DNA of 64,000 nucleotides from Polyangia bacterium (GTDB lineage Bacteria; Myxococcota_A; Polyangia; Fen-1088): positions 5,986-69,985 of the forward strand of contig DASZUD010000231.1 in NCBI GenBank assembly GCA_035548155.1. The letters are read 5' to 3'. Below the pieces are notes generated by a model, which was given only the letters and a program-made list of their open reading frames with translations, was not told where the DNA came from and ran no database searches. Shown one piece after another: positions 16,822 through 53,950 of the stretch; the first letter of the stretch is position 1; the number at the start of each line of letters is the position of its first letter. Made by a program: the position numbers and the translations under genes.

Positions 16822-27360
<10,539 letters not shown>

Positions 27361-33356: not shown

Positions 33357-36300
33357 TTGCCCTTACCCGCCGAGACGGTCTCCGACAGCTCCGGGATGAC
33401 CGGCGTCGGCGACATGTTCGTCGAGACGTAGCCAGCCTCGGGCTTGACCTCCGAGGAGAGCGGGTACTCGGACGGCTTCATCTGGTTCAGCTCGCGCTCG
33501 CAGAGGCGCGACCACTCGTTGTACCAGGACTGCTCCGTCGCCGCTTTGAGGCACTTCTCGAACCCGTCGACGGCCTTCGACTCGATCGGTTCGGCCTTGT
33601 CTTCGAGCGCGTCGCAGAAGATCTGGCGAGGCTGATTGCCCCACTCGTCCTGCTCCTTGAGGTCCTTCGGAATCTCGGCCGTGTACAGCTGGCCGGCGAA
33701 GTCGCTGTAGATCTGGCCGACGCGCGCCGCGGACGCGATCGTCCACTGGGCCTGCTTCATGCCGAACACGTCGAGGTACTGCGTGCGCGCCTTCTCGAGG
33801 GCCTTGGCCTTCTCGTCCAGGTAGGCCGTGAACTTCTTGCCCGACTCTTCGGCCTTCTTCTTCTTCGCGGCCGCCTTCTTGGGCGTGTCGTAGGACGACG
33901 GCTGCTGGAAGTCGAGGCCCTCCGGAAACTTGATGCGGAGGAAGTTCTCGTACGACGACTCGGCCAGGTAGAACGCCGAGCCCGCGACGGCGTAGGCCGC
34001 GAGCCCCGCCCGCGCCTCGACGTCCTTGCCCGTGATCTTCGAGGCCGCGGCGCCCTTGTTCCAGATCTTGAGGACGGCCTGGAAGTGCTCCTGCGCCTTC
34101 GACGCCTGTGCCTTGCTGCGGTCGAAGAGGTTGATCTTCGACTTGGTCGGAGGGCCGCACTGCGTGCGCGACTTTTCGTGCAGCTTCTTGCCCTTCTTCA
34201 GCTTCTTGTTGAGGTCGGCGAGGACCTTCTGGCGGCCCGTCGCCGAGACGCGCTTGACCTCGAGGCAGGCGCCGTCTTCCGAAGCCTTCGGGCACGACGC
34301 CTTCCAGGCCATCTCGCCCAGCTTGAAGTGCGCGAGGATCTGACGATCGGGGCCGCCCTGCGCGCCCCACGTCTTGAGATAGCTCTCGAGGTGCTTGGCC
34401 AGCTCGTCCTTGCGGCCGTCCTTCTCGTAGACGTCGCCCATCTGGAAGTACACGCCGGCTGCGTCCTGCGGCTTGCGCTTGCCGTAGAAGTCGACGAACG
34501 ACTTCATATCGGTCAGGGCGCGGTCGCCCTCGCCCAGGCCGATGCGGAACGTCGTCGCGTTGCCGAGCGCGTCCGTGGCCTTCTTCTCACCCGGGAACTT
34601 CTTGGCGAAGTCCTCGTAGTAGTCCGACGCCTTCGAGTAGTAGGCGAGCTGGTGGTACCCGGCGGCCACGCGGAAGAGCGCCTTCTGCGCCAGCGGATCC
34701 TTCTCGTGATCCTTGATGAGCTGGAGGCGCGCCTTCAGCGCCTGGCCGACGAGGTGCGCATTCTGGAAGCACTGGCCGGCGTTCCAGAGGCGCTCCGCGT
34801 GCTTCGGGTGTTCGGGCAGCGACTCGGCCGCGGCCAGCATCGAACGGCCGCACTCCTTGTAGTTGTGCAGCTTCTCGAACTCGTGGCCTTCCATGTCGTA
34901 CGTGTCCGAGCGCAGCGAGATCATCTGCTTGCCGAACTCGGGATCCTTCATGAGGCACTGCTTGTCGAGGAACTTGTCGACGTTCTCGACGACCTCCTTC
35001 GTCTTCCCGAGCGCGTTGAGCGAGTCGAGGAGGAGGTTGGCCGAGTAGATCGCGAGCTCGTCGTCACAGTGCTTGTCGACGATCTCCTGAAAGAGCGGCG
35101 CGGCCTCCGCGAAGTGGTTGTACTCGTAGAAGATGCGCGCGCGACGGTACATGATCGTGACCGTCTCCTTCGCGTCGGGCACGTACTTCAGGTACGTGTC
35201 GAACGCGTTGATCATCTTCTGCTGGTACTCGGGGATCTTCAGCGGCTCGAGCTTCGTGCTCTGCTGGCCGTTTTCCTTCTTGTCGTTGCGCGACGCCTCG
35301 ACCTGATCCTTCTGCTCGTGGTCGTCGACGTTCAGGGCGTTCTTCCACGCGAGCACGGCCGCGTAGGCGGCGTCCTTCACGTACTTGCCCTTCGGGTTCA
35401 TCTCCACGACCTTCGTGTACTGCTCGGCGGCGTCCTTCCAATTCTCGAGCGTCCACAAGAGCTCCCCGTAGTAGAAGCCCATGTCGTAGGCGTCCTTGTC
35501 CTGCGGGAAGTGGTCGAGGAAGACCTTGTACACGTACTTGTCGAGCGCGTACGTGTCGCTGTTCTTCGTGCGCTGGGCTTCCTTGTGCCAGATGAGCGCC
35601 AGCTCCTTGGCCGTGTCGTGGAAGGAGTTACGGCACTCCTCCATCTGGTCCTTCTTCACGCCGCCCTTCATCTCGCCGACCTTGTCGTAGACGGCGCCGA
35701 GGCGTTCGATCTCCTGGACCTGATCCTTCTTCGTGCCCGCCGAAAGCGTGTTGCGGACGATCTTGTTTTGCCACTCGCAGATGCGCGGCGAGTCCATGTT
35801 CATGGAGATCACCTTGCGGTACACGCGCGTCGAGTCGCCGAACTGGCCCTGCTCCCAGTAGAGCTCGGCCAGGCCTTCCATCATCTTCGGCGCGAAGTCG
35901 CCGCCCACGCGCTGGAAGAACTCCCAGGCCTTGTCCGGGCCGCCGACGTGGGCGTACGCCTTGACGATGTCCTTCTTCGCTTCCTTCTCGAGCGACTTGG
36001 CCTGGTTCGCGTTCACGTTGGCGCGGTGCTCCTGCACCATGCGCACGACGCCGACGAACGTCTCGAGGGCGGTCTTGTAGTCGCCCTGGTTCACGTAGCA
36101 CCACCCCTTCTTGTAGACGGCGTAGGGGTAGACGCTGGACTTCGGGAACTGCTCGACCTTCTCGTAGAACTTGAGGGCCGCGTCCATCTCGGCCTTGTCG
36201 AAGTAGAACTCGGCGAACGACAGGTAGGCGTCCGGGATGTACTTCGAGTTCGGGTAGTCCTTGATGAGGCGGAGGAAGAACTCGCGCGCCTGGTCCTCCT

Positions 36301-36916
36301 TCTTCACCGAGGTGAGGAGGTAGGCGAGCTTGAAGAGCACCTCATCCATGCGCTCGTACTTCTTGAACTTGGTCGCCTGGACGTACGACTTGACGGCCTC
36401 GAGCAGCCACTTCTGCTGGTCGCTCTCGTACTTCTTCTGCTGGTTCTGAAGAGTCGCCTTCTGCGCGGGCGGCGCGTCGAAGATCTTCTGATCGAGCGCG
36501 CGCGCCTGGTTGAAGTTGTAGCGCTGCTTCTCCGCGTAGAGCTCGGCGAGGCGGAAGTGGAAGTCCGGCTTCTGCGGATCGTCGTCCTGCGTGACCTGGA
36601 TGAGGCGACGCATCTTGATGATCTGCGCGTCGACCAGCTTCTGGATCTCGCCCTGCTTCTGGAAGATGAACTGGTCGACCGTGATGGTCGGGCCCGTCTC
36701 CTTCTGCTTCGGCGGCGGAGCCTGAGGCTTCGTCAGGTTCGTCTGCTGAACGCCCTGGACCTCCTTCTCCTGCTTCTGGTAGCGAGCCTTGCCGCTGTTT
36801 GCCGGCGTCGTCTGTTCACCGCCCGCGGCCAGCGCCATCGACGGCGAGGCGACCGTCAAGGTCGCCGTCAGCGCGAGCGCGCAAGTCCGCAGGGTGGACC
36901 GGAGCTGGTGCTTCAT
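33353..36916 (-). CDS. Large secreted TPR protein of 1187 aa (AgmU/GltD-like).
   Basis: Track ORF 33353..37180 has an R/P-rich 88-codon extension. The start is chosen at MKHQLRSTLRTCALALTATLTVASPSMALA (signal peptide). TPR-like repeats run throughout. Its size and first-in-operon position match agmU. Confidence 0.85.
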   Translation of the reverse strand: MKHQLRSTLRTCALALTATLTVASPSMALAAGGEQTTPANSGKARYQKQEKEVQGVQQTNLTKPQAPPPKQKETGPTITVDQFIFQKQGEIQKLVDAQIIKMRRLIQVTQDDDPQKPDFHFRLAELYAEKQRYNFNQARALDQKIFDAPPAQKATLQNQQKKYESDQQKWLLEAVKSYVQATKFKKYERMDEVLFKLAYLLTSVKKEDQAREFFLRLIKDYPNSKYIPDAYLSFAEFYFDKAEMDAALKFYEKVEQFPKSSVYPYAVYKKGWCYVNQGDYKTALETFVGVVRMVQEHRANVNANQAKSLEKEAKKDIVKAYAHVGGPDKAWEFFQRVGGDFAPKMMEGLAELYWEQGQFGDSTRVYRKVISMNMDSPRICEWQNKIVRNTLSAGTKKDQVQEIERLGAVYDKVGEMKGGVKKDQMEECRNSFHDTAKELALIWHKEAQRTKNSDTYALDKYVYKVFLDHFPQDKDAYDMGFYYGELLWTLENWKDAAEQYTKVVEMNPKGKYVKDAAYAAVLAWKNALNVDDHEQKDQVEASRNDKKENGQQSTKLEPLKIPEYQQKMINAFDTYLKYVPDAKETVTIMYRRARIFYEYNHFAEAAPLFQEIVDKHCDDELAIYSANLLLDSLNALGKTKEVVENVDKFLDKQCLMKDPEFGKQMISLRSDTYDMEGHEFEKLHNYKECGRSMLAAAESLPEHPKHAERLWNAGQCFQNAHLVGQALKARLQLIKDHEKDPLAQKALFRVAAGYHQLAYYSKASDYYEDFAKKFPGEKKATDALGNATTFRIGLGEGDRALTDMKSFVDFYGKRKPQDAAGVYFQMGDVYEKDGRKDELAKHLESYLKTWGAQGGPDRQILAHFKLGEMAWKASCPKASEDGACLEVKRVSATGRQKVLADLNKKLKKGKKLHEKSRTQCGPPTKSKINLFDRSKAQASKAQEHFQAVLKIWNKGAAASKITGKDVEARAGLAAYAVAGSAFYLAESSYENFLRIKFPEGLDFQQPSSYDTPKKAAAKKKKAEESGKKFTAYLDEKAKALEKARTQYLDVFGMKQAQWTIASAARVGQIYSDFAGQLYTAEIPKDLKEQDEWGNQPRQIFCDALEDKAEPIESKAVDGFEKCLKAATEQSWYNEWSRLCERELNQMKPSEYPLSSEVKPEAGYVSTNMSPTPVIPELSETVSAGKGK

Positions 36917-36974
36917 CGTTCGATTCTCCACGGATGATTTCTCCACGGTGAAGGACATCGCCTGACTGCTGACG

Positions 36975-38672
36975 CTACGGAGTGACCGCGGGAGCGGCCT
37001 CGGGAGCCGCGGCCGGCGCCGCCGCCTCGCCCGTCGCCGGCGCGCCCTCGGGCGCGTTGCGCGCGCACTTGTTGGCGATGCGGACGCGGTAATAGCCGAG
37101 CTCGTCGCGCCAGTACTCGCCCGTGAACGGCCACATCTGGTGCTCGTCGTCGACGCGGATCTCCTCGGAGCGCTTGCCACCGCCGCCCTGCACGATCTGC
37201 TGCTCCTGGATGACCTCCTGCTCGAGGGCGCCCTTCTGGCCCTGCAGGATTTCGTACTCGATCTTGATCACGCGCTTGATGAGCTGCGCGAGCTCGTCCG
37301 TGAGGCGGATGATGCGGCGGCGCGCCAGATCACCGGCCTCGTTCACCGCGAGCGACCGCTGCAGCGTCAGGTCGGCGAAGACCGTTTGCGCGATGTTCGT
37401 CGACTTCCAGGCCGGCTCGGCCTTGTCGTGCTGCTTGAGCTCGCGATCGAGCTCGTCGACGTACTGGAAGCGCTTGACGAGGCTCATGTCCCCGAGGACG
37501 CCGCGCGCAGCGCGCTCGACCTGCTCCGGCAGGCCCGACGTGCCCTTGCGGATCTTGACGGCCGTCTCGTAGAGCGCGGCGTTGTCCGTCTCCGACATCA
37601 CGAGCTTCTTGAGCTCGGTGAAGACCTGGGGATAGACGGCGTTGAACTCGTCGATTGATTCCTCGGCGCGATCGTAGAGGCAGTTATAGAAGTAGATCGT
37701 CGCCTTGACCGAGAGGCCCTCGGCCACCGACTCGGGCTTGATCGTGTTCTCGAAGTACGGCGCCTGGATCGTGTGGATGTTGCCGAGCGCCTTCGAGTAG
37801 CCCTTCTGCTTGAGCATGAAGTTCGCCCACGACGACTCGAAGAGGCTGTTCGCCCAGTCGTAAGAATCAGGCGAGACCTTGTCGAAGTACTTCGCGGCCA
37901 GCTCGAACTGGCCCGTCGAGTAGAACGTGCGCGCGAGCGACAGGTTCGCGAGATCCTCGAACGGCTTGATCTCGGGCTTCGTGCTCTCGGCCGAGGCGCG
38001 GAGGACCTCCTTGAACGAGTCGACGGCGGGCTTCGCCTGGTACTCGCGGACGTGCGTCGCGCCCTCGAACAGCTTCGCCTGGACGTAGAACTCGCTCGAG
38101 GTCGGCACGGCGCCGAACAGCTCGACGGCCTCCTTGAAGCTGCCCTTCTGATAGTAGTACTTGCCGAGCAGGAAGTAGAGCTCGTCCTTCACCTGCTCGA
38201 GCGCGGGCTGATCGAGCTCCGCGCGGTTGTACTTACCGATCTTCTCGAGGATGCCCGTCGAGTCGGGGAGCTTGCGCGACAGCGACGCGAGCCACTTCAG
38301 CGTCGCGTTGTAGTAGGCGTGCGACGGGCCCTTCTGGACGATGCGGTCGAAGTACGACAGCGACGCCGAGTAGAACTTCATGTTGTAGAGGGCCTTGCCC
38401 ATCCAGAACTCGGCCTTCTGCTTGTTCGCCTCGGTGTCGCCGGACTCGCCTTCGACGACCTTGTTGAGCTCGATCGAGGCGGAGTAATAGTCCTCGCCAT
38501 CGTAGAGCTTGAACGCGCGCTCGAGGACCTTCGACGGCTGATCGCCCGTGGGCGCAGCCTCCGGTTGGAAGTCCTTCGAGGGAGCCGTCTTCTTTTTCTT
38601 CGCCAGCGCCACCTGCGTGGAGAGGCAAAGGGACGTCATGAGGACGATGCCGACTGCGCGCTTTCGGCTCAT
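36975..38672 (-). CDS. Secreted helical-repeat (TPR-like) protein of 565 aa, encoded first in the Glt-like cluster.
   Basis: A signal peptide MSRKRAVGIVLMTSLCLSTQVALA is present. The body is Tyr/Leu-rich helical repeats. It lies 58 nt upstream of the AgmU-like gene on the same strand. Confidence 0.75.
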   Translation of the reverse strand: MSRKRAVGIVLMTSLCLSTQVALAKKKKTAPSKDFQPEAAPTGDQPSKVLERAFKLYDGEDYYSASIELNKVVEGESGDTEANKQKAEFWMGKALYNMKFYSASLSYFDRIVQKGPSHAYYNATLKWLASLSRKLPDSTGILEKIGKYNRAELDQPALEQVKDELYFLLGKYYYQKGSFKEAVELFGAVPTSSEFYVQAKLFEGATHVREYQAKPAVDSFKEVLRASAESTKPEIKPFEDLANLSLARTFYSTGQFELAAKYFDKVSPDSYDWANSLFESSWANFMLKQKGYSKALGNIHTIQAPYFENTIKPESVAEGLSVKATIYFYNCLYDRAEESIDEFNAVYPQVFTELKKLVMSETDNAALYETAVKIRKGTSGLPEQVERAARGVLGDMSLVKRFQYVDELDRELKQHDKAEPAWKSTNIAQTVFADLTLQRSLAVNEAGDLARRRIIRLTDELAQLIKRVIKIEYEILQGQKGALEQEVIQEQQIVQGGGGKRSEEIRVDDEHQMWPFTGEYWRDELGYYRVRIANKCARNAPEGAPATGEAAAPAAAPEAAPAVTP

Positions 38673-40813: not shown

Positions 40814-41221
40814 TTACGAAGCCGGCGCCGCGGCGGGCGCGGGAGCGGCAACCTCGTCCGAGGTGACCTTCTCCTTCTCGCCCTTGATGCGGGCCGCCTT
40901 GCCCTGCAGATCCCGCAGGTAGTTGAGGCGGGCGCGACGGACGTGACCCTTGGTCACGATCTCGATCTTCTCGATGCGCGACGTGTGCAGCGGGAAGATG
41001 CGCTCGACGCCGACGCCGTAGGAGATCTTGCGAACGGTGAACGACGCGCGCGACCCGCCACGGTGCTGGCCGATCACGACGCCCTCGAACACCTGCACGC
41101 GCTCCTTGTCGCCTTCCTTGATCAGCGTGTGAACGCGAACGCTGTCACCCGAACGAAACTCCGGGATGTCCTTGCGCCGATTGGCGCTCTCGATCTCACG
41201 CAGGAGGGCATGCTGGCTCAT
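40814..41221 (-). CDS. rplS: 50S ribosomal protein L19.
   Basis: The 135-aa basic protein carries an L19-like sequence ([29 protein letters not shown]). Its context downstream of trmD matches. Confidence 0.9.
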
Positions 41222-41344
41222 CGAAAACCTTCTCTCCGAAAGGGCCGTTATAACTAGTCGGACTCCCGCCCCGAGTCAAGGGCCCGGGTCAGGAAACCGC
41301 GATCGTCCCGCCCGGAGTCTTCGCGCGTCGCGGCGCCCGGCGTC

Positions 41345-42124
41345 TCACTTTTCGCCTGAACCTTCGTCTGAACCTTCGTCGAGCAGCCGCTGTTCGTCGG
41401 GCGAAAGCGGGTGCGCCGCCAGGAGGTCGGGGCGGCGCTCCAGCGTGCGGCGCAGCGATTCGCGTCGGCGCCAGCGCGCGACGGCCGCGTGATCGCCCGA
41501 GGAGAGGATCTCGGGAACCGCGTGGCCGTTCCACACGGGCGGGCGCGTCCACTGCGGGTACTCGAGGCGCGCCGCCGAGAACGATTCGTCCTCGGTCGAC
41601 ATCCCGCAGCCGAGCACGCCCGGCACGAGGCGCGCGACGGCCTCGACGACGCACGCCGCGGCGAGCTCGCCGCCCGCGAGCACGAAGTCACCCACGCTGA
41701 GCTGCTCGTGGCACAGCACCGAGCCGACGCGCTCGTCGACGCCCTCGTACCGGCCGCAGACGAGCAAGAGGCGCGGCATCGCGGCCAGCTCGCCCGCCCG
41801 CCGCTGGTCGAACGGCCGGCCCTGCGGCGTCAGCAGGATGCGGTGCGCAGGACCGCGCGCCGCCTCGATGGCCTCGATGGCCGCCGCGATGGGCTCGACG
41901 CGCATGATCATGCCGGGACCGCCGCCGTACGGCGTGTCGTCGACCTGGCGGTGACGGCCGGGCGCGAAGTCGCGCGGACTCGTGCGGTGCGCCGAGACCA
42001 GACCGGCGGCCATCGCCTTCCCGACCAGCGTCGCGCTGAGGAGACCGTCGAAGATCTCCGGGAACAACGTCACCAGCTCGAACTCGACGGCAGGCCGCTC
42101 CATCGCGGGACTAGCTTCAGTCAT
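41345..42124 (-). CDS. trmD: tRNA (guanine37-N1)-methyltransferase.
   Basis: The SPOUT motif YGGGPGM is present, with LTPQGRPFDQ. An alternative start lies at MERP (42103). Confidence 0.9.
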   Translation of the reverse strand: MTEASPAMERPAVEFELVTLFPEIFDGLLSATLVGKAMAAGLVSAHRTSPRDFAPGRHRQVDDTPYGGGPGMIMRVEPIAAAIEAIEAARGPAHRILLTPQGRPFDQRRAGELAAMPRLLLVCGRYEGVDERVGSVLCHEQLSVGDFVLAGGELAAACVVEAVARLVPGVLGCGMSTEDESFSAARLEYPQWTRPPVWNGHAVPEILSSGDHAAVARWRRRESLRRTLERRPDLLAAHPLSPDEQRLLDEGSDEGSGEK

Positions 42125-42650
42125 CGCTTTCCAAGCTCTCCCACGACACGACGACCTTGCGACCCGCCACGTCCATGGTCACGACGAACGCGGGGACCAG
42201 CGGGATGAGCTCTTCGGCGGGCGGCTCGCCCGCACCGCGCACGATCATGACGTCCTGCGCACCATTCCAGAACGTCGACTCGACGACGCCGAGCTCGCGG
42301 CCGCTCTCGTGCAGCACGCGACACCCCACGACGTCCTCGACGTAGAACTCGCCCGGGCCCAGCGGCGGCAGCGCCGAACGACGCGCGCGCACCTCGGCCA
42401 GCGTGAGCGCGGCGGCCGCCTCACGGCTGTCGACGCCCGCGAAGCGCACCAGGGCGCCGCCCTGCGCAGGCTTGAGCGTGACGACGGTGTACGCCTTCGT
42501 GACGCCGTCCTTGACCAGCAGGAGCTCGCGCAGCCCCTCGAAGGGGCGACCGTGCTGGTTGTGCGGGCGCAGCCACAGCTCACCGTGGACGCCGTGGGGC
42601 TTCCCGACGACGCCCAGCACGACCATCTCGGGGTCGTAGGCGCGCGTCAC
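42117..42650 (-). CDS. rimM: Ribosome maturation factor RimM.
   Basis: The segment GKPHGVHGELWLRPH and a PRC-barrel C-terminus are present. It sits between the KH gene and trmD. Confidence 0.85.
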   Translation of the reverse strand: MTRAYDPEMVVLGVVGKPHGVHGELWLRPHNQHGRPFEGLRELLLVKDGVTKAYTVVTLKPAQGGALVRFAGVDSREAAAALTLAEVRARRSALPPLGPGEFYVEDVVGCRVLHESGRELGVVESTFWNGAQDVMIVRGAGEPPAEELIPLVPAFVVTMDVAGRKVVVSWESLESDD

Positions 42651-42697
42651 GGACGACCCTCCGCGCTATTCCAAAGCCCGCGGCGCAGCCGCAGGCC

Positions 42698-42991
42698 TTA
42701 CTCCAAGATCTCGAGAATGACGCGGCGGCCGCTCTTCGCAGAGGCGGCCGACAGGATCGTGCGCAGGGCCTTCGCGGTCCGGCCCTGTTTGCCGATCACC
42801 TTCCCGAGGTCCTCTTCGGCGACCTTGAGCTCGAAGACGAGGGCGTCCGGCTCCTCGATCTCCTCGACCTCGACCTGCTCGGGGTGATCGACGAGGCCGC
42901 GCGCGAGGTAGTCGACGAGATCGCGCAGCGACGAGTCCCAAACGCTGGACGAATCGTCCTTGCGTCGGCCCTTCTCGACGGCGTCGCTCAT
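42698..42991 (-). CDS. KH-domain RNA-binding protein (UPF0109/YlqC-like).
   Basis: The segment LGKVIGKQGRTAKALRTI contains a GxxG KH loop. Length is 97 aa. It has the classic position between rpsP and rimM. Confidence 0.75.
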   Translation of the reverse strand: MSDAVEKGRRKDDSSSVWDSSLRDLVDYLARGLVDHPEQVEVEEIEEPDALVFELKVAEEDLGKVIGKQGRTAKALRTILSAASAKSGRRVILEILE

Positions 42992-43008
42992 AGACGTTCG
43001 ACGCCGGG

Positions 43009-43266
43009 CTACGAGGCCTTGGGAGCGTTGCGCTTCTGGCGGCGAAGGAGCTCGCCGACCGTCTGGCTGGGGAGCGCGCCCATCTTGAGCCAGTGCGCGA
43101 CGCGCTCTTCGTCGACGCGGAACTCGACCGGATCGCGAAGCGGATCGTAAACGCCGATCTGCTCGATGAAACGGCCGTCGCGCGGGCTGCGGCTGTCGGT
43201 GGCCACCACGCGGTAGAAAGGCACCTTCTTGCTGCCGGCCCGGGTCAGTCTGATCGTCACGGACAT
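43009..43266 (-). CDS. rpsP: 30S ribosomal protein S16.
   Basis: The start [42 protein letters not shown] matches S16. The track ORF extends 44 codons upstream to 43398. Confidence 0.85.
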
Positions 43267-43413
43267 AGTGTTTCCCTCGAAAAACGAGTCGCGAAAGCTA
43301 CCCGCGCCCCGGCGAGCTGTCAAGCTGCAAGCAAGTCGCGAGTCGCGGGCCGGGCGGCCAGTGACGCCGGCTTCGCCTGTCGGGGGCCCGTCTGACATGA
43401 TGCCGGCGCACGA

Positions 43414-45102
43414 ATGAGCTCGTCACACCCTTCCCGGTTCACGCTCTTGACCGCCGTCCTCCTTGCAGCGGGCGGCCTGATCGCGCTGGCGGCGCGCGGC
43501 ACGGCCGCCGCAGCCAAGGCAGGTTCCGCGAGCGAGCGTCGCTTCACCTTCTTTTACACGGCCGAGGCACACGGCGTCCTCGAGCCCTGCGGCTGCACGA
43601 GTGACCCGCTCGGCGACCTCGCGCGGTACGCGTCGGTCGTGCAGGCGGCGCGCAAGCAAGCGGGTGACGTGCTGCTCGTCGACGCGGGCGGGCTGTCGTA
43701 TCCCGAAGGTGGTGCGTCTCCGCGCGAGCGCGCCGGCAACGACCTGCGCGCGCGATTCCTAGCGGCCCAGCTGGGCAAGCTGGGGCTCGCCGCGACGGGC
43801 CTCGCGGACACGGATCTCGCGGCGGGCCCTTCGGCGGTACAACCGCCGCGGCTCGCGGCGAACCTGCCGGGCGCGCCGGAGCTCAAGCCGGCGGCGTCCG
43901 TGCTGCGCGCCGTGAACGGCGTGCGCGTCGGCGTCGTGGGCGTCGTGGATCCGGCCGTCGCGTCGAGCCTGAGCGTCAAGGCGGAGGATCCCGTCGTGGC
44001 GGCGCGGCGCGAGGCGGCCCGCCTGCGCCAGGCCGGCGCCGAGATCGTGATCGCGCTCGCGCCCGTCGACCGGCCGGTCGCGCGCCGGCTCGCGCGCGAC
44101 GCAGGCGTCGACTTCGTCGTGCTGGGACGCCAGGTGGGCGCCGGCTCGCCGCGCGCGGACGCCGTGGGCAGCGCGTTCATTCTCACTCCCGCCGACGAGC
44201 TGCAGAAGGTCGGGCGCGTCGACGTCGTCCTGCGCGGCGGACAGATCGTCGACGCGGGCGGCGCCGACGCGAACGAGCTGCGCAAGCTGGAGCTCGCGCG
44301 TGACCTCACGCGCATCGACGGCGAGCTGGCCGCGTGGTCGAAGCCGGGCGGCGGCGCGGGCGCCGACCCCAACTTCGTCGCCGCGAAGAAGAAGGAGCGT
44401 GACACGCTGGCGGCCGAGCGCGACAAGCTGAGCGCCGCGGCCTGGGCGCCGCCGGCGGCGGGTTCCTACTTCACCAACCGACTCGTCCCGCTGTCGCGCA
44501 GCCTGCCGAGAGACGCGGCGATCGCGTCGGCGATGCGCGCGCTCGACGCGCAGATCGGCAAGGTGAACCTGCGCGAGGCCGCGCCGCCGACGCCCGCCGA
44601 GCCGGGACGGCCTTTCTACGTCGGCATGGACAAGTGCGCCTCGTGCCACAAGCCGGCCGTCGCCTACTGGCGCACGACGGTGCACGCGCACGCGTGGAAA
44701 TCACTCACGGACGTGGGCAAGCAGGCCGACTACAAGTGCGTGAGCTGCCACGTCACGGGCTATGGCCAGGTGGGCGGCACGAGCCTCGGCCACACGCAGC
44801 ACTTCGAGAACGTCCAGTGCGAGAACTGCCACGGCCCCGGGTCGGACCACGTGGCGGGCAAGGGCCTCGAGGACCCGCCCGCGATCCAGCGGCAGGTGCC
44901 CTCGCCCGTTTGCACGAACTGCCACAACGAGCACCACTCCGACACGTTCAATTACAACGCCTACCTGCGCGACATCCTGGGCCCCGGCCACGGCGCGAAG
45001 GCCCGGGCCACGCTGGGCGACGGGCCGACGGGCCGGTCGCTGCGCTCGGCCGCCCTCTCGCGCGCGAAGGCGGCCGGCAAGGCGAGCCTGTCGAAGCTCT
45101 AG
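43414..45102 (+). CDS. Periplasmic fusion protein: an N-terminal ~430-aa uncharacterised domain fused to a C-terminal tetraheme cytochrome c.
   Basis: A signal peptide is present. Four CxxCH haem-binding motifs occur in the last 110 aa: CASCH, CVSCH, CENCH and CTNCH. Confidence 0.7.
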
Positions 45103-47356: not shown

Positions 47357-48235
47357 TCAGAGCGTCGTCGCGCTCGGTGCGCAGCCCGGCGGCTGTTGCG
47401 CGCACGCGCAGCTGCGGCAGCCGTTCGGCCCCGTGCGGAAGCCGTATGGACAGGCCTTGCAGAGGATGTTCAGGCCTGCGCACGTGGCTGCGGACAGGCA
47501 CCCGCAGGTCTGGCAGCCGTTGGCGTCCAGCGCGTAACCCTCCGCGCAGCTGGTGGCGCACGACACGGCCGGGCAGCTCCCAGGCGTCGTGCCCGCGGGG
47601 CAGGTCGCGGGCGGCTTGCACGTGCACGTCGCGCAGCCGCCCTCGTCGGCGACGTCGCCGTTCGCGCACGTCGAGGGGTCGCAGCGCAGCGCCGGACACT
47701 TGCAGGTGGGCGGCTGCCACGCGCACTTGCCGTCCGTGTTCCGGGCGCAGCCGCCGCCGACGATCGTCCCCGTCGGACAGTACGGCGCCGCGAATGGCGG
47801 CGGTGGACCGCAATCGTCCGTCGTGCACGCTGGCGGCGGGTTGCACTCGCAAGTCGGGCAGCCGTTGGCATCCAGCACGTTGCCGTACTGGCAGAAGATG
47901 TCGCAGACCGGGCCGCACGCGCCCCCGGTGCCGCCCTTCCCGCCCGCTCCCTTCGTGCCGGCGGTCCCCGTCGTTCCCGCGCTGCCGGTCGTGCCGCCGC
48001 TGCCCGCCGCGCCGGTCGTGCCGCCGCTGCCCGCCACTCCCGTCGTGCCACCGCCGCCGGCAGACCCGCTCGTGCCACCGCTGCCCGCGGCACCCGTGCC
48101 GCCCGTCGTGCCGGCCGCTCCGCCGTCGTGGCCCGCGCGTCCCGACGCGCCGCCGTCCGGGCTCAACGTGACGGAGCCACAGCCCAGCAGAACGACGGCC
48201 AGCGCGAGCGCCAGGCGCGAGCGAAGCGCGATCAT
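47357..48235 (-). CDS. Cys-rich lipoprotein with a Gly/Thr-rich repeat linker (paralogue A).
   Basis: The start MIALRSRLALALAVVLLGCGS carries a lipobox. A ~110-aa (G/T/A/S)-rich linker follows. The ~160-aa C-terminal domain has 30 Cys with repeated NGC[PQR]TC.C motifs. An ATGA overlap joins it to the upstream paralogue. Confidence 0.65.
   Translation of the reverse strand: MIALRSRLALALAVVLLGCGSVTLSPDGGASGRAGHDGGAAGTTGGTGAAGSGGTSGSAGGGGTTGVAGSGGTTGAAGSGGTTGSAGTTGTAGTKGAGGKGGTGGACGPVCDIFCQYGNVLDANGCPTCECNPPPACTTDDCGPPPPFAAPYCPTGTIVGGGCARNTDGKCAWQPPTCKCPALRCDPSTCANGDVADEGGCATCTCKPPATCPAGTTPGSCPAVSCATSCAEGYALDANGCQTCGCLSAATCAGLNILCKACPYGFRTGPNGCRSCACAQQPPGCAPSATTL
47940..48135. repeat. Degenerate 18-nt periodic repeats inside paralogue A (Gly/Thr/Ala linker).
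   Basis: Imperfect iterations of c.gt.gtgcc.cc.ctgcc run through 47940-48135. Confidence 0.55.
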
Positions 48236-49062
48236 TGCGTGGCGACCGGTGTGCACGTGCACGTGGGGCAGCCAGTCGCCTCCGGCTGCGCGGCCGCCGC
48301 CGTCACGGGGCACGCGATGAGCGGACAAGCGAGCACCGGACACGGCACGCACGTCGGACCCTGCCAGACGCAGACGCCGTCCGTTCCGCGCTTGCACACG
48401 GCCGGATTCACCTGACCGCTCTTGCAGATAGGATAGGCGTAGTCGGGCTCGGGACCGCACTCGGACGGGGTGCACGCCCCGCCGGTTCCACCGGCGCCCG
48501 TCGTTCCACCGGCGCCCGTCGTCCCACCGGCGCCCGTCGTCCCACCGGCGCCCGTCGTTCCGCCGGCGCCCGTCGTTCCGCCCGCGCCGCCGGCGCCGCC
48601 CGCCCCGCCGGCGCCGCCCGTACCGCCCGTTCCCTTCGTGCCGGCAGCGCCCGTCCCGCCTTGGCCACCGCTGCCGCCAGCACCACCTGTCCCCGTCGTG
48701 CCACCGGTGCCCTTGGTCCCCGCGGTGCCGGTCGATCCGCCGGTGCCGGCGCCACCGGAAGACCCCGCGGCGCCCGTCGTGCCAGCGCCGCCTGCTGCGC
48801 CCGTTGATCCCGCGACGCCGCCGTCCGAGCCGCTGGCGCCCGAGACGTGCCCGCCGGTCCCCGCCGATCCGCTGGCGTTCGTGCCGCCGCTTCCACCGCC
48901 GCCGTCCGCCGTCACGCTGACCGAGCCGCAGCCCGCCACCGCGACGACGAGAGCGAACGTCAACGAAGCCAAAGAGAGGCGAAGCATCATGGGCGGCGCT
49001 CCTTCACGAGAGGCATGGGGAGAACCCTGCCATTCTGCATTCAGCGTGCCGCCACTGATCAA
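48232..49062 (-). CDS. Cys-rich lipoprotein with a Gly/Thr-rich repeat linker (paralogue B).
   Basis: A lipobox VAGCGS is present. The linker carries (TTGAGG)5 encoded by 18-nt DNA tandem repeats. A C-terminal Cys-rich domain with GCPTCTC follows. The track ORF starts with a TTG at 49062. An ATG alternative (MMLRLS) lies about 24 codons downstream. Confidence 0.65.
   Translation of the reverse strand: MISGGTLNAEWQGSPHASREGAPPMMLRLSLASLTFALVVAVAGCGSVSVTADGGGGSGGTNASGSAGTGGHVSGASGSDGGVAGSTGAAGGAGTTGAAGSSGGAGTGGSTGTAGTKGTGGTTGTGGAGGSGGQGGTGAAGTKGTGGTGGAGGAGGAGGAGGTTGAGGTTGAGGTTGAGGTTGAGGTTGAGGTGGACTPSECGPEPDYAYPICKSGQVNPAVCKRGTDGVCVWQGPTCVPCPVLACPLIACPVTAAAAQPEATGCPTCTCTPVATQ
48485..48580. repeat. 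Tandem 18-nt direct repeats, about 5 copies of accggcgcccgtcgttcc read on the plus strand, inside paralogue B. They encode the Thr-Thr-Gly-Ala-Gly-Gly repeats.
   Basis: The repeats are visible directly in the sequence at 48481-48580. Their period is 18 nt with few mismatches. Confidence 0.8.
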
Positions 49063-50671: not shown

Positions 50672-51736
50672 TCAGGGGAACGCGAACACGTCGCGCTCGC
50701 CGAACTGCTTGACCAGCACCGTGACGTACTGCCGGACGACGTCGCGGCGCGCGACGACGGCGCGGATCTCGGCGGGCGTGAGGATCTCGTAGGGCGTCCC
50801 GGTCTCCTCGGACAGCACGCGCTCGAGCGTCGGCACGCTGATGCGGTCGAGCGCCTGGTAGGTCCCTCGCGAGAACCGCTGCGTCCGCATGAGCGCGTCG
50901 CGAGCCTTCGTTTTGCCCGTGGGCTCGACGTAGAAGGACATCGTGTTGTCCATGTAGTAGAGCTGCTTGCCGTCGGGCGACATCTTCATGTTGCCGCCCG
51001 AGAGGCGGTCCGGGTTGTCCGTGAGGAAGTCGAACACGACCAGGTCCGAGAGCTGGGCGGCCATGTCGCGCTTGTCGGCGGGAATGGCCTGGCCCAAGGA
51101 CAGCCAGGTCTGCGCGAGGCGCTGCCCCTCGGGCGTGTCGAACCCGGAGTCCTTGATGACGGGGATCCAGTAGGAAGCCGTGCCGACGGTCTTGCCGCCG
51201 GGGCCGAAGATCGTCTCGGCCTCGATGCGCGGGATCAGCGGGACGCTCTCGGGGTGAAGGTGGCTCAGCAGCTCGTCGTGCGCGACGACGCGCGGCGCGG
51301 CCGGGGGCACGGCGTTGAGCCCCAGCAGACGGTTCAGCCGGTACGCCGCCACCTCCTTGCGCGGGATCGTCTGCAGGTTCGTCTGGTTCGGCTTCCAGGC
51401 CGCGCGCGAGCCGTCGGCGAACTCGATGCGGAACGACAGCGACGACCCGCCGTGGTTCACCTTGAACCGCACGATGGGCAGCGTGCGCACGCGCTGGAGC
51501 AGGAGCTCGTCGGACATGCCCAGGAACGTGCCGGCCGCCTCGAGCGCGATCACGGGATCGGGCAGCGCCGACAGATCCTTGCGCGCGGACAGCGGCGCGG
51601 GCCCTTGGGCCTCGCGCGCGCGCGCCGCCAGCACCGCGCGCGCGCCGTGCGAAAGGCGCATGATCCCCCAGCCGCCGCTGCCCAGCACCGCTGCGGCGAT
51701 CGTCAGCTCGGCGAAGATGAGCCCCGGGAGACGCAC
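50672..51736 (-). CDS. Membrane-anchored protein with a Fam20/four-jointed-like atypical kinase motif.
   Basis: An N-terminal transmembrane helix is present. The motif VVFDFLTDNPDRLSGGN resembles the FDFL..N.DRH catalytic segment of the Fam20/FJX1 secretory-kinase family. Confidence 0.55.
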   Translation of the reverse strand: MRLPGLIFAELTIAAAVLGSGGWGIMRLSHGARAVLAARAREAQGPAPLSARKDLSALPDPVIALEAAGTFLGMSDELLLQRVRTLPIVRFKVNHGGSSLSFRIEFADGSRAAWKPNQTNLQTIPRKEVAAYRLNRLLGLNAVPPAAPRVVAHDELLSHLHPESVPLIPRIEAETIFGPGGKTVGTASYWIPVIKDSGFDTPEGQRLAQTWLSLGQAIPADKRDMAAQLSDLVVFDFLTDNPDRLSGGNMKMSPDGKQLYYMDNTMSFYVEPTGKTKARDALMRTQRFSRGTYQALDRISVPTLERVLSEETGTPYEILTPAEIRAVVARRDVVRQYVTVLVKQFGERDVFAFP

Positions 51737-52037: not shown

Positions 52038-53132
52038 CTAGGGAGACGCCGCGACGGCGTCCTCGAGCGCGTTCGCGATCGTGCCCTTGCGCGTGAAGCC
52101 CACGAAGGTTCCACGTACGGCGCCGTCCTTGCCGATGATGATCATGGTGGGCAGCGAGCGGACCTTGTAGAGGCCGTTGATCTCGCCCTCGTCGATGCCG
52201 ACGGGGTACGGGACGTCGTGCTCGCGCAGGAAGGCGCGCAGGGCCTCGGGCTCGATGCCGCCGTCGGAGTTGATGCCCAGGAACGTCACGCCCCGACCGC
52301 TCCATTCGGCGTGAAGCTCGTGCAGCGTGGGCAGCATCGCCAGGCACGGCGGGCACCACGTGGCCCAGAAATCGAGCACGACCACCTGCCCGCGCAGCGC
52401 CGCGAGCGAGATCTCCCCCGGCTGACCGTCGGCGCGAGCGAGCGTGAACCGCGGCGCCGCCTGGCCGCTGCGCACGGGCAGGAGCGCGCGCAGGTGCCGC
52501 GCCGACCACACGAGGTTGCCGGCCAGCGCCACGGCGGCGACGCCCGCGACGGCGAGGCCCGCGAGGCGCGCGCGGCGGCCCGGCGAGACGATCACCGGCG
52601 CCGGGAACGTGCCGGTGCGCCGGCGCGCCACGATGATCGCGCACACGAACGCCGGCAGCGTCACGGCGATCGCGCCGGCGCGCGCGCCCCAGACCGGCCA
52701 CGGGCGCGCGCCCGTGAGCTCCTCGACGACGCGGAACGCGCTGGTCGCGGCGAACCAGGGCGCGTAGCAGGCGGCGCCGAGCTCGAGGTCGCGCGACGAG
52801 TCGCGGCGCGCACCCGCGAGCAGCGTGATCGCGACGGAAGCCGGCAGCACGACCCAGGCCGCGGCGACGATCTCGTTCGCCGCGACGGAGACGACGCGCA
52901 AGAGCGCGTCCATGCTGGGCGCCGACAGCCCCAGCAGCGCCTCGAACAGCAGCGGAAAGCGGAACGTCACCGTCGCCAGCGCGACCAGCCAGATCGCGTC
53001 GTGGAGCCCGCCGCCCTGACGATCGATGCGCTCGAGCGCCGCGCGCGGCGCCAGCAGGATCTGCCCCACGCGCCCCAGCAGCCCGCGCAGCGGCTGGCGG
53101 GGCGGGGCGGCGGTGGCGGTCTCGTCGGCCAT
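52038..53132 (-). CDS. Membrane-anchored TlpA/ResA-like thiol:disulfide oxidoreductase.
   Basis: The start is chosen at MADETATAAPP. About 220 aa form a polytopic membrane domain. The periplasmic thioredoxin fold carries WATWCPPC. The R-rich 5' extension of the track ORF is rejected. Confidence 0.75.
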   Translation of the reverse strand: MADETATAAPPRQPLRGLLGRVGQILLAPRAALERIDRQGGGLHDAIWLVALATVTFRFPLLFEALLGLSAPSMDALLRVVSVAANEIVAAAWVVLPASVAITLLAGARRDSSRDLELGAACYAPWFAATSAFRVVEELTGARPWPVWGARAGAIAVTLPAFVCAIIVARRRTGTFPAPVIVSPGRRARLAGLAVAGVAAVALAGNLVWSARHLRALLPVRSGQAAPRFTLARADGQPGEISLAALRGQVVVLDFWATWCPPCLAMLPTLHELHAEWSGRGVTFLGINSDGGIEPEALRAFLREHDVPYPVGIDEGEINGLYKVRSLPTMIIIGKDGAVRGTFVGFTRKGTIANALEDAVAASP

Positions 53133-53140
53133 GGTCGTCG

Positions 53141-53920
53141 CTACCGGTTGCGCTCGTAGATGAGCGCCAGGCCCTGGAGCGTGAGCATGTCGTCGCACTC
53201 CTGGATCGTGCGCGTCTCCTTGGCGATGAGCGGCGCCAAGCCGCCCGTGCCGACGACGCGCGGCGAGAAGTCCACCTCGGCCTTGATGCGATCGACGATC
53301 GCGTCGACGAGGCCGGCGTAGCCGAAGACGAGGCCTGCCTGGATGCTGGCGACGGTGTTGCGCCCCACGGCGGCGCGCGGCCTCGCGATCTCGACGCGCG
53401 GGAGCTTCGCCGTCGCCGAGAAGAGCGCGTCGGACGACACCATCACGCCGGGCGCGATCACGCCGCCCGCGTACTCGCCGCGGGCCGTGACGACGTCGAA
53501 GGTCGTCGCCGTGCCGAAGTCGACGACGATCGCGCCGCCCGGCCAACGCTTGTACGCCGCGACGGCGTTGACGATGCGGTCGGCGCCCACCTCGCGCGGG
53601 TTCTCGTAGAGGATCGGCATGCCGGTCTTCGTGCCGGGCCCCACGACGAGCGGCTCCACCTCGAGGTGCTTGCGGCAGAGCAGCTCGATCGGGAAGAGCA
53701 CGGGCGGCACGACCGACGACACGGCGACGGCGGTCACGGCGCGCATCTCGAGGCTCGCGAGACGGAACAGCTCGGACAGGAGCGCCGCGTACTCGTCCGC
53801 CGTGCGCGACGCTCGCGTCTCGATGCGCCAGTCGGCCCGCAAGGCTCCCACGCCGCCGGGCCCCAGCTCAAACAGCCCGAAGGCGAGGTTCGTGTTCCCG
53901 ATGTCGATGGCGAGGAGCAT
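53141..53920 (-). CDS. coaX: Type III pantothenate kinase.
   Basis: The start MLLAIDIGNTNLAFGLF is the ASKHA phosphate-1 motif. Length is about 259 aa. Confidence 0.85.
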   Translation of the reverse strand: MLLAIDIGNTNLAFGLFELGPGGVGALRADWRIETRASRTADEYAALLSELFRLASLEMRAVTAVAVSSVVPPVLFPIELLCRKHLEVEPLVVGPGTKTGMPILYENPREVGADRIVNAVAAYKRWPGGAIVVDFGTATTFDVVTARGEYAGGVIAPGVMVSSDALFSATAKLPRVEIARPRAAVGRNTVASIQAGLVFGYAGLVDAIVDRIKAEVDFSPRVVGTGGLAPLIAKETRTIQECDDMLTLQGLALIYERNR

Positions 53921-53950
53921 GGAGCGGCCCATAGGCTAACATGCCGGGCG

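What the first reader, a model, noticed from the sequence alone, without database searches (positions are those of the whole stretch)
43414..45102. Tetraheme cytochrome c fused behind a large uncharacterised periplasmic domain
Four CxxCH motifs (CASCH, CVSCH, CENCH, CTNCH) cluster in the last ~110 residues of a 562-aa secreted protein. The first ~430 aa contain no haem motif. That N-terminal region begins [29 protein letters not shown] and has a metallophosphatase-like feel but no clear GDxHG. The protein may couple an unknown catalytic or binding domain to a short electron-transfer wire. It sits next to a TlpA-like membrane oxidoreductase region downstream, which fits periplasmic redox biology.
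Basis: partly seen in the sequence, partly recalled or inferred. Interest (0 to 1): 0.55.

Follow-up and report, generated by a model that had tools for sequence, protein, structure and literature searches.

The report
Haem-wired Cys-Gly-Cys enzyme on dead nucleotidase fold
This gene encodes a periplasmic protein in which a 5'-nucleotidase-like fold has lost its metal site, carries an invariant Cys-Gly-Cys loop (Cys-Gly-selenocysteine in relatives) and is fused to a four-haem electron wire; the family is already catalogued but nobody has tested what it does.

Summary
ORF 43414-45102 (+) encodes 562 aa with four CxxCH motifs (C408, C442, C469, C500). They account for four of only five such motifs in all six frames of the window.

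The canonical dimetal ligands are not conserved. The residues conserved in every one of 282 relatives include C59-G60-C61, in the loop after phosphatase motif I. Nine metagenomic relatives carry an in-frame TGA exactly at the C61 position and still read through to four haem motifs. C61 is therefore the Cys counterpart of a catalytic selenocysteine.

My best reading is a periplasmic (seleno)thiol:cytochrome c oxidoreductase whose substrate is unknown.

The claimed TlpA adjacency is wrong: that gene lies about 7 kb away, beyond six unrelated genes. The gene is a vertically inherited core gene of Polyangia, divergent from the rpsP operon in 43 of 80 related loci. It is a new Cys-type member of a known, experimentally uncharacterised family.

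The parts
43414..45102 (+). Complete CDS, 562 aa: Cys-type UshA-like (seleno)protein family member with a C-terminal tetrahaem domain
   Evidence: ORF list. GC3 0.92. NF041198 E 1.6e-71, covering profile positions 4-519 of 519. 100% identical protein P0001 in NCBI.
43414..43524 (+). N-terminal signal-peptide-like segment (aa 1 to about 37); no lipobox cysteine, unlike many relatives
   Evidence: Sequence inspection. pLDDT 43-52 over residues 1-40. Many relatives have a Cys at the lipobox position.
43537..44253 (+). Degenerate 5'-nucleotidase-type metallophosphatase domain (aa 42 to about 280)
43582..43617 (+). Signature loop E57-P-C59-G-C61-T-S-D-P-L-G-D68; C59 codon at 43588-43590, C61 codon at 43594-43596. 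Proposed redox-active site
   Evidence: C59, G60 and C61 are conserved in 282 of 282 relatives. C61 aligns with an in-frame TGA in nine metagenomic relatives that score 300-617 bits on NF041198. The loop has pLDDT below 50.
44263..44436 (+). Long helical hairpin (aa 284-341) in place of the nucleotide-binding C-terminal domain of true 5'-nucleotidases
44611..45003 (+). Cytochrome c554-like tetrahaem domain (aa 400-530)
   Evidence: Pfam PF13435 E 2.6e-13, 51.1 bits against a cutoff of 20.8. c554 1bvb E 2e-9. Candidate distal histidines H424 and H479 are universal; H508 and H526 are conserved in Cys forms.
44635..44649 (+). Haem motif 1, CASCH (aa 408-412)
   Evidence: invariant in 217 of 217 relatives.
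44737..44751 (+). Haem motif 2, CVSCH (aa 442-446)
   Evidence: invariant.
44818..44832 (+). Haem motif 3, CENCH (aa 469-473)
   Evidence: invariant.
44911..44925 (+). Haem motif 4, CTNCH (aa 500-504)
   Evidence: invariant.
43267..43413 (.). Roughly 147-bp divergent intergenic region between this gene and rpsP; presumed promoter region, not tested
   Evidence: Sequence. The rpsP orientation and adjacency are conserved in 43 of 80 related genome loci.

Best explanation
The gene encodes a periplasmic, Cys-type member of the UshA-like (seleno)protein family. Its N-terminal domain keeps the 5'-nucleotidase/SoxB metallophosphatase fold but has lost the dimetal ligands and the nucleotide-binding C-terminal domain, so it is not a phosphoesterase. 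The loop directly after phosphatase motif I overhangs the active site in true 5'-nucleotidases. Here that loop carries an invariant Cys59-Gly-Cys61. I propose that this pair cycles between dithiol and disulfide (a selenenylsulfide in the Sec forms), with Cys61 as the attacking residue. I further propose that the two electrons are exchanged, one at a time, with the C-terminal c554-like tetrahaem domain and from there with the periplasmic cytochrome c pool. That would make the protein a (seleno)thiol:cytochrome c oxidoreductase.

Shown here: the fold, the loss of ligands, the invariance of C-G-C, the Sec/Cys equivalence at position 61, and the conserved four-haem module.

Inferred: redox cycling of the pair, electronic coupling to the haems, the direction of electron flow, and the substrate. 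My leading guess for the substrate is thiols or disulfides of envelope proteins or small molecules. Peroxide or inorganic S/Se species are alternatives.
For: 1. Architecture and family. NF041198 matches at E 1.6e-71 over the full profile. Distant relatives pass the cutoff with 283-314 bits, and NCBI names relatives 'UshA-like (seleno)protein'.
3. Loss of phosphatase chemistry. In 282 relatives no canonical ligand position is conserved. In this protein GD becomes G93, the N and H of GNHE become L130 and A131, the motif IV His becomes P217 and the motif V His becomes R239. No 5'-nucleotidase C-terminal domain is detected.
4. C59, G60 and C61 are conserved in 282 of 282 relatives.
5. Nine metagenomic relatives have TGA at exactly the C61 codon. 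Read-through gives proteins of 445-557 aa, each with four CxxCH. Three of them were scanned against NCBIfam and score 300-617 bits on NF041198. Six of the nine have a hairpin starting 13-16 nt after the UGA with a GGUCU loop. Selenoproteome surveys list the family motif as CxU. Sec/Cys interchange at one position is, from general knowledge, typical of catalytic redox residues.
6. The four haem motifs and four candidate distal histidines are conserved in this clade, which fits an all-bis-His electron wire.
7. Precedents. A CxC motif acts as an oxidising disulfide-relay site whose electrons end on cytochrome c in Mia40 CPC to Erv1 to cytochrome c (PMC3588022). A Sec plus Cys plus multihaem combination acts as a periplasmic reductase in MccSep (bioRxiv 10.1101/2025.11.18.688581).
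8. Neighbours in other clades are envelope-biogenesis genes, including a DsbA-like thioredoxin in three loci.
Against: There is no biochemical or genetic data for any family member. The C-G-C loop is the least confident part of the N-domain model (pLDDT below 50). No coordinates were available, so the Cys-to-haem distance could not be measured. AF2 also does not model haems, and the haem domain has pLDDT 47-78. No redox partner or substrate-related gene is consistently adjacent. In the window the gene stands alone between a ribosomal operon and a convergent PLP enzyme. This clade keeps E51 and H53 at the two motif I ligand positions and D90, which leaves room for a metal site that includes the cysteines. 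Sec is also used as a metal ligand in some enzymes, so Sec/Cys exchange does not by itself prove thiol-disulfide chemistry. The direction of electron flow is unknown.
Confidence: 0.55

Rival explanations
1. The two cysteines (Cys/Sec in relatives) are ligands of a new redox metal centre (Cu, Fe, Ni or similar) that replaced the ancestral dimetal site. Catalysis would occur at that metal, and the haems would feed or drain it.
For: The loop sits beside the former metal site. This clade retains E51 and H53 at the motif I ligand positions. Many Sec forms keep D-x-H, GD and the motif IV His. CxC motifs can chelate Cu(I), as in CCS domain III (PMC6383938). From general knowledge, Sec ligates metals in [NiFeSe] hydrogenase and formate dehydrogenase.
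Against: Across 282 relatives no former ligand position is conserved. The H53 position is mostly K, A, S or R, and the GD position is G, N, S or P. Apart from C-G-C, the only N-domain positions examined that never change in these relatives are G92 (282 of 282) and D134 (274 D and 8 E); G67 (281 of 282) and R71 come close, and these positions are not metal ligands in the 5'-nucleotidase fold. Two thiolates alone make a poor complete site.
Confidence: 0.18
2. The Cys/Sec loop works directly at one haem, as an axial ligand or active-site residue. This would resemble MccSep, TsdA or SoxAX, and the enzyme would transform inorganic sulfur or selenium species such as polysulfide, thiosulfate, sulfide or selenite.
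For: The MccSep precedent: a Cys-ligated haem plus a catalytic Sec reduces polysulfide. The domain is homologous to SoxB. In Sec forms one of the four candidate distal histidines (the H508 position) is absent, leaving a possibly open haem. From general knowledge, c554 itself has one five-coordinate haem.
Against: In this protein and its clade all four candidate distal histidines are conserved. No sox, dsr, psr or other sulfur genes are present in the window or in the 166 related loci examined. All of the 80 best-matching genome loci are Myxococcota (Polyangia, Bradymonadia) or bins labelled only Proteobacteria, Deltaproteobacteria or bacterium; from general knowledge these lineages are largely aerobic heterotrophs. 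There is no sequence relationship to MccSep/ExtKL (NF040886 scores 10.8 bits against a cutoff of 250).
Confidence: 0.15
3. The N-terminal domain is a non-catalytic binding or scaffold module, for example one that docks on envelope or peptidoglycan-remodelling proteins. The C-G-C would be structural, and the protein would be simply an anchored electron carrier.
Against: A purely structural vicinal CxC disulfide is strained and rare (general knowledge). A costly selenocysteine would not be maintained at a structural position. Absolute conservation of C-G-C while the rest of the domain diverges to about 25% identity points to catalysis.
Confidence: 0.08
4. The protein is still a working periplasmic nucleotidase or phosphoesterase that merely carries a cytochrome domain.
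For: The fold and family homology. One source annotates a relative as 2',3'-cyclic-nucleotide 2'-phosphodiesterase (P0307).
Against: GD, GNHE, the motif IV His and the motif V His are all replaced in this protein. There is no nucleoside-binding C-terminal domain. UshA, CpdB and NadN NCBIfam models score far below their cutoffs.
Confidence: 0.03

Closest known systems
NCBIfam NF041198, UshA-like (seleno)protein (PCGU family; 'COG0737 UshA-like, CxU' of selenoproteome surveys)
   Same: The match runs end to end: profile positions 4-519 of 519, E 1.6e-71. It shares the same P-C-G-(U/C) loop, the same C-terminal four CxxCH and the same helical linker. Relatives between this protein and the seed sequences form a continuum.
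   Different: Position 61 is Cys, not Sec. The score of 241.5 bits is below the 275-bit equivalog cutoff. The Polyangia clade has lost more ancestral ligands (P217 and R239 where many members keep His). It also has an extra conserved His (H508) and a roughly 35-aa C-terminal helical tail. The family has no experimentally known function.
5'-nucleotidase / UshA / CD73 N-terminal metallophosphatase domain
   Different: The dimetal ligands and catalytic His are not conserved. There is no C-terminal nucleotide-binding domain. A C-G-C loop has been inserted and a tetrahaem domain fused.
SoxB thiosulfohydrolase
   Different: TIGR04486 scores 16.4 bits against a cutoff of 550. There is no dimanganese site, no sox genes are nearby, and SoxB has no haems.
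Cytochrome c554 (CycA) of Nitrosomonas europaea, Pfam PF13435
   Same: Sequence similarity over the first three haem motifs (E 2e-9 to 1bvb; PF13435 51 bits). Four haems.
   Different: Here it is a fused C-terminal domain, with no hao or cM552 context. NF043010 scores 42 bits against a cutoff of 400.
MccSep (Geobacter multihaem cytochrome c selenoprotein, polysulfide reductase)
   Same: The concept: a periplasmic multihaem protein whose catalysis depends on a Sec plus a Cys.
   Different: No homology. MccSep has five haems, a Cys-ligated haem and an unrelated fold.
Mia40 (CPC) - Erv1 - cytochrome c disulfide relay; CCS domain III CXC
   Same: A vicinal CxC motif acts as the redox-active site, and the electrons are finally delivered to cytochrome c. 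CxC also serves for combined Cu and disulfide transfer.
   Different: The folds are unrelated and the system is eukaryotic. The relay is spread over separate proteins and uses FAD rather than covalently fused haems. This is an analogy only.

Membership tests
NCBIfam NF041198 UshA-like (seleno)protein | HMM score at or above the curated cutoff (275 bits) | tested here: not met
   241.5 bits, E 1.6e-71. Relatives P0231, P0245, P0244 and others, and three scanned Sec forms, pass with 283-617 bits.
NCBIfam NF041198 UshA-like (seleno)protein | Full-length architecture: UshA-like N-domain plus a C-terminal multihaem region | tested here: met
   The alignment covers protein residues 24-515 and profile positions 4-519 of 519.
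NCBIfam NF041198 UshA-like (seleno)protein | P-C-G-U motif, with Cys permitted in place of Sec | tested here: met
   P58-C59-G60-C61. The TGA of nine relatives aligns with C61.
NCBIfam NF041198 UshA-like (seleno)protein | Selenocysteine (in-frame UGA plus SECIS) | tested here: not met
   The codon at 43594-43596 encodes Cys; this is a Cys homologue.
5'-nucleotidase / UshA (COG0737, metallophosphatase) | Calcineurin-like phosphoesterase fold | tested here: met
5'-nucleotidase / UshA (COG0737, metallophosphatase) | Dimetal ligand motifs DxH, GD, GNH(E/D), H and GH | tested here: not met
   The corresponding positions are E51-x-H53, G93, L130/A131, P217 and R239. These positions are not conserved across 282 relatives.
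5'-nucleotidase / UshA (COG0737, metallophosphatase) | C-terminal nucleotide-binding domain (5_nucleotid_C) | tested here: not met
Cytochrome c554 family (Pfam PF13435) | Pfam score above the gathering threshold | tested here: met
   51.1 bits against a cutoff of 20.8, residues 407-474.
Cytochrome c554 family (Pfam PF13435) | Four covalent haems actually attached | not testable with these tools
   Four invariant CxxCH motifs. Haem attachment needs a haem stain or mass spectrometry. No ccm or ccs genes were seen among the window genes scanned.
Cytochrome c554 (NF043010, CycA of nitrifiers) | Equivalog score and partnership with hydroxylamine oxidoreductase | tested here: not met
   42.1 bits against a cutoff of 400. 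No hao in the window.
SoxB thiosulfohydrolase (TIGR04486) | Equivalog score, dimanganese site, sox operon | tested here: not met
   16.4 bits against a cutoff of 550. The ligands are lost. No sox neighbours.
MccSep / ExtKL multihaem selenoproteins (NF040886) | Sequence membership | tested here: not met
   10.8 bits against a cutoff of 250. PDB 9wt9 E 0.03, covering a haem motif only.

The most novel reading that the evidence does not exclude
The family could be a previously unrecognised class of periplasmic sulfhydryl oxidoreductase. In this reading a dead 5'-nucleotidase scaffold presents a strained Cys-Gly-Cys/Sec redox loop that is wired by four fused haems straight into the respiratory cytochrome c pool. 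It would be a bacterial, single-polypeptide analogue of the mitochondrial Mia40-Erv1-cytochrome c relay, serving oxidative folding or redox maintenance of envelope-assembly proteins. That role would explain three observations: its housekeeping, vertically inherited status in Polyangia; the recurrence in other clades of lytic transglycosylase, DsbA-like, LptD and secretin genes next to it; and the use of selenocysteine in some lineages.
Probability: 0.15. Interest if true: 0.78.

Novelty: new member of a known kind. Interest (0 to 1): 0.45.

Why it matters
The family is widespread. The N-domain alone finds 1,443 cluster representatives at 50% identity (E up to 0.001), and 487 pattern-matched stretches among GTDB species genomes encode relatives. 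It is conserved as a core gene across Polyangia and uses selenocysteine in some lineages, yet it has no assigned function. If the Cys/Sec loop is a haem-wired redox site, this would be a new way to connect thiol or selenol chemistry in the periplasm to the respiratory chain. It would also be a clear case of a hydrolase fold converted into a redox enzyme. The Cys form from cultivable relatives such as Nannocystis exedens DSM 71 (locus L033) offers an experimentally easier entry point than the selenoprotein forms. For genome annotation, the result shows that 'multiheme c-type cytochrome' under-describes this protein, and that the NF041198 cutoff excludes a large Cys-type clade with the same architecture.

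Tried and rejected
1. Single-sequence searches could not place the N-domain. Pfam hit only the haem region, and a single-sequence PDB search gave only c554 plus spurious D-Ala-D-Ala ligase matches. NCBIfam, a 36-sequence family profile and a structure model were needed.
2. TlpA linkage is rejected. The redoxin gene is about 7 kb away on the other strand. Its recurrence in relatives reflects general synteny.
3. I looked for a universal operon partner by clustering neighbours of 166 related loci. None exists; contexts are specific to each clade.
4. Apparent relatives without haem motifs (P0128, P0143) look like frameshifted translations of GC-rich DNA. I did not count them as a haem-less architecture.
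5. Folding of the SECIS-like hairpins gave energies no better than shuffled sequences (z from -2.6 to +0.5). Only their position and the shared GGUCU loop are suggestive.
6. Literature searches for any functional study of the family found only catalogue listings.
7. I could not extract model coordinates, so the Cys-to-haem distance, which would have discriminated between the mechanisms, remains unmeasured.
8. Weak TPR_CcmH_CycH hits in the giant TPR proteins are below cutoff and are not evidence for cytochrome maturation genes.

Full report
**Observation**

The ORF at 43414-45102 (+) is real: ATG start, 562 aa. Its third-position GC is 0.92, typical of true genes in this roughly 70% GC window. 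It contains CASCH, CVSCH, CENCH and CTNCH at residues 408, 442, 469 and 500. Only five CxxCH motifs occur in all six reading frames of the 64 kb window, and four of them are these. Apart from the eight haem cysteines, the protein has just two others, C59 and C61. An identical protein is recorded as 'multiheme c-type cytochrome [Polyangia bacterium]' (P0001), so the window comes from a Polyangia (Myxococcota) genome. The N-terminus looks like a Sec signal peptide by inspection. No lipobox cysteine is present, although many relatives have one.

**What the N-terminal region is**

Pfam sees only the haem part: PF13435 Cytochrome_C554, 51 bits, residues 407-474. A single-sequence PDB search sees only c554. 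NCBIfam matches the whole protein to NF041198, 'UshA-like (seleno)protein', model name UshA_like_PCGU. The match has E 1.6e-71 and covers profile positions 4-519 of 519. At 241.5 bits it falls below the curated cutoff of 275.

**Loss of the phosphatase site and the Cys-Gly-Cys loop**

The profile alignment to 2z1a places 'LEPCGC..GG-AR' opposite 'LEPVELTLSGEKTPVGGVAR'. This is the loop that directly follows phosphatase motif I. I aligned 282 family members: 119 close relatives, 154 distant ones and 9 Sec forms. None of the canonical ligand positions is conserved in that alignment.
- The motif I His is mostly K, A, S or R outside this clade.
- The GD aspartate is G93 here and N, D, S or P elsewhere.
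- The N and H of GNHE are L130 and A131.
- The motif IV His is P217.
- The motif V His is R239.

By contrast, C59, G60 and C61 are present in 282 of 282 sequences. Of the other N-domain positions I examined, G92 is also invariant and D134 is always acidic (274 D, 8 E). G67 (281 of 282) and R71 come close. These positions are not metal ligands in the 5'-nucleotidase fold. The C-G-C loop is the least confident stretch of the N-domain model (pLDDT below 50 for residues 58-60). That fits a mobile, exposed loop.

**Selenocysteine relatives**

Nine of the 80 metagenomic loci fetched with the family alignment have an in-frame TGA exactly where this protein has C61. They are L116, L117, L122, L148, L152, L154, L158, L160 and L162. 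The local motifs are EPCG-TGA, KPCG-TGA and similar. Reading through the TGA gives proteins of 445-557 aa, each with four C-terminal CxxCH motifs, which align in register with the query. I scanned three of them against NCBIfam, and they score 300, 330 and 617 bits on NF041198. In six of the nine, a hairpin begins 13-16 nt after the UGA and is capped by a GGUCU loop. The folding energies are not distinguishable from shuffled sequences. The resemblance to the E. coli fdhF SECIS loop is from my memory.

Selenoproteome surveys list the family as 'COG0737 UshA-like, CxU' without assigning a function (PMC2398784, PMC9312934, PMC13188914). C61 is therefore the Cys counterpart of a selenocysteine. In general knowledge, such positions are nearly always catalytic redox or nucleophilic residues.

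**Haem domain**

All four CxxCH motifs are invariant in 217 of 217 aligned relatives. Two further histidines, H424 and H479, are universal. H508 and H526 are conserved in the Cys forms, and H508 is absent from the Sec forms. In this clade, four candidate distal histidines for four haems fit an all-bis-His electron wire. Similarity to c554 covers the first three motifs.

**Genomic context**

Upstream and divergent lies rpsP-KH-rimM-trmD-rplS. Downstream and convergent is a PLP-dependent enzyme. It is followed by nadA, two Cys-rich lipoproteins, rimO and a Fam20-like gene. The TlpA-like redoxin (52038-53546, minus strand) comes only after those, about 7 kb away.

The divergent rpsP arrangement is kept in 43 of 80 related loci from species-representative genomes. 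These include Kofleriaceae, Nannocystis exedens and Polyangiaceae at 31-60% identity. The gene is therefore an old, vertically inherited core gene of Polyangia.

No partner is universal, but several recur within clades:
- An RlpA-like DPBB lytic transglycosylase directly downstream on the same strand in 29 loci.
- An SLT+LysM lytic transglycosylase in the same position, sometimes overlapping the stop codon, in 8 further loci.
- A Tat-type DUF362 protein plus a NapH-like polyferredoxin in some Polyangiaceae.
- A DsbA-like thioredoxin in three loci.
- DUF1573 before the gene and, after one unidentified gene, secretin, T2SSE and T2SSF, the full run being seen in three or four distant loci; DUF1573 precedes the gene in about nine.
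- LptD upstream of two Sec forms.

None of these is present in the window.

**Mechanism**

Five things are shown: a dead 5'-nucleotidase fold, an invariant C-G-C/U loop at the mouth of the former active site, a Sec/Cys switch at the second position, a conserved fused tetrahaem module, and periplasmic targeting (implied by c-type haem attachment).

I infer that the Cys59/Cys61 pair cycles between dithiol and disulfide, or selenenylsulfide in the Sec forms. Electrons would be exchanged through the four haems with the periplasmic cytochrome pool. That makes the protein a (seleno)thiol:cytochrome c oxidoreductase.

The substrate and the direction of electron flow are unknown. CxC motifs are known as oxidising relay sites whose electrons reach cytochrome c (Mia40 CPC to Erv1 to cytochrome c, PMC3588022). 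Sec plus Cys plus multihaem catalysis has a periplasmic precedent in MccSep. Because the neighbours are housekeeping and envelope-biogenesis genes, I lean towards protein or small-molecule thiol/disulfide substrates. Peroxides or inorganic S/Se species are alternatives.

The rivals are:
- a Cys/Sec-ligated metal centre;
- a Cys/Sec-haem active site for sulfur chemistry;
- a non-catalytic scaffold;
- a residual phosphoesterase, which the sequence largely excludes.

**Comparison and novelty**

The protein has the architecture and motif of NF041198 but fails its score cutoff and has Cys instead of Sec. It has the 5'-nucleotidase fold but fails that family's defining ligand motifs and lacks its C-terminal domain. 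It contains a c554-like module but is not CycA. It is a new Cys-type, Polyangia-clade member of a catalogued family that has not been characterised experimentally.

It ranks as moderately interesting. The underlying biochemistry is unknown and could be new, but the family itself is already on record, and nothing in this window adds functional context.

Noticed in passing
window 40814-43266 (minus strand) relative to 43414-45102; loci L001-L079: The cytochrome gene is divergently paired with the rpsP-KH-rimM-trmD-rplS operon in 43 of 80 related genome loci, down to about 31% protein identity. No ffh lies directly upstream of rpsP; the cytochrome gene occupies that side instead.
   Followed up: partly
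L010-L026, L044, L056, L067, L074, L079, L088-L121 (RlpA-like); L081, L082, L084, L085, L095, L096, L108, L112 (SLT+LysM): Two unrelated kinds of lytic transglycosylase gene sit immediately downstream of the homologue on the same strand: a DPBB/RlpA-like type in 29 loci and an SLT+LysM type in 8. An Amidase_3 gene is also nearby in L083 and L084. The window has no such gene. This may point to a functional link to cell-wall remodelling, but it is unexplained.
   Followed up: partly
L116, L117, L122, L148, L160, L162, 13-40 nt after the in-frame TGA: The putative SECIS hairpin has a GGUCU loop that coincides with the codons for the conserved L-G-G-L peptide (GGC GGT CTG). RNA and protein constraints may therefore overlap here.
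   Followed up: partly
window 47357-48475 and 48232-49062, minus strand: Two tandem predicted lipoproteins have long Gly/Thr/Ala-rich linkers and Cys-rich C-terminal regions. The first matches the Pfam Antistasin repeat (E 1.2e-19, three stretches), which from general knowledge is a leech-type protease-inhibitor module. The second has no Pfam hit.
   Followed up: no
window 16822-27360 minus strand (3512 aa); also 33353-37180, 31614-33356 and 36975-38672: A giant 3512-aa TPR-repeat protein and three further TPR proteins are clustered upstream, next to an FHA-domain protein at 28764-30962. The 565-aa TPR protein at 36975-38672 is syntenic in 28 related loci.
   Followed up: no
window 50672-51736, minus strand: A 354-aa protein gives a weak, sub-threshold match to the Fam20C Golgi casein kinase C-terminal domain (E 8e-4, 19.6 bits against a cutoff of 26.8). 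It is conserved in nine related loci.
   Followed up: no
window 52038-53546, minus strand: The TlpA/AhpC-TSA-like redoxin domain occupies only residues 360-493 of a 502-aa ORF. The roughly 350-aa N-terminal part has no Pfam match. The ORF start was not verified, and it overlaps coaX (53141-53932).
   Followed up: no
L038, L046, L053, L065 downstream of the homologue: In some Polyangiaceae the homologue is followed by a DUF362 protein with a twin-arginine-like N-terminus and a NapH-like membrane polyferredoxin (Fer4_5). This pair could be an electron-transfer partner module.
   Followed up: partly
L132-L164 (distant clade); L123, L130, L139; L152, L162: Other clade-specific neighbours: DUF1573 directly upstream in about nine loci, with secretin, T2SSE and T2SSF following the homologue after one unidentified gene in three or four of them (L141, L157, L164; partly L140); a DsbA-like thioredoxin downstream in three loci; and LptD plus an HU-like gene upstream of two Sec forms.
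   Followed up: partly
window about 3715, plus strand, frame 0: This is the only other CxxCH motif in the six-frame translation of the window. It lies in a stretch that my GC3 filter did not call as coding on the plus strand, so it is probably a chance occurrence.
   Followed up: no
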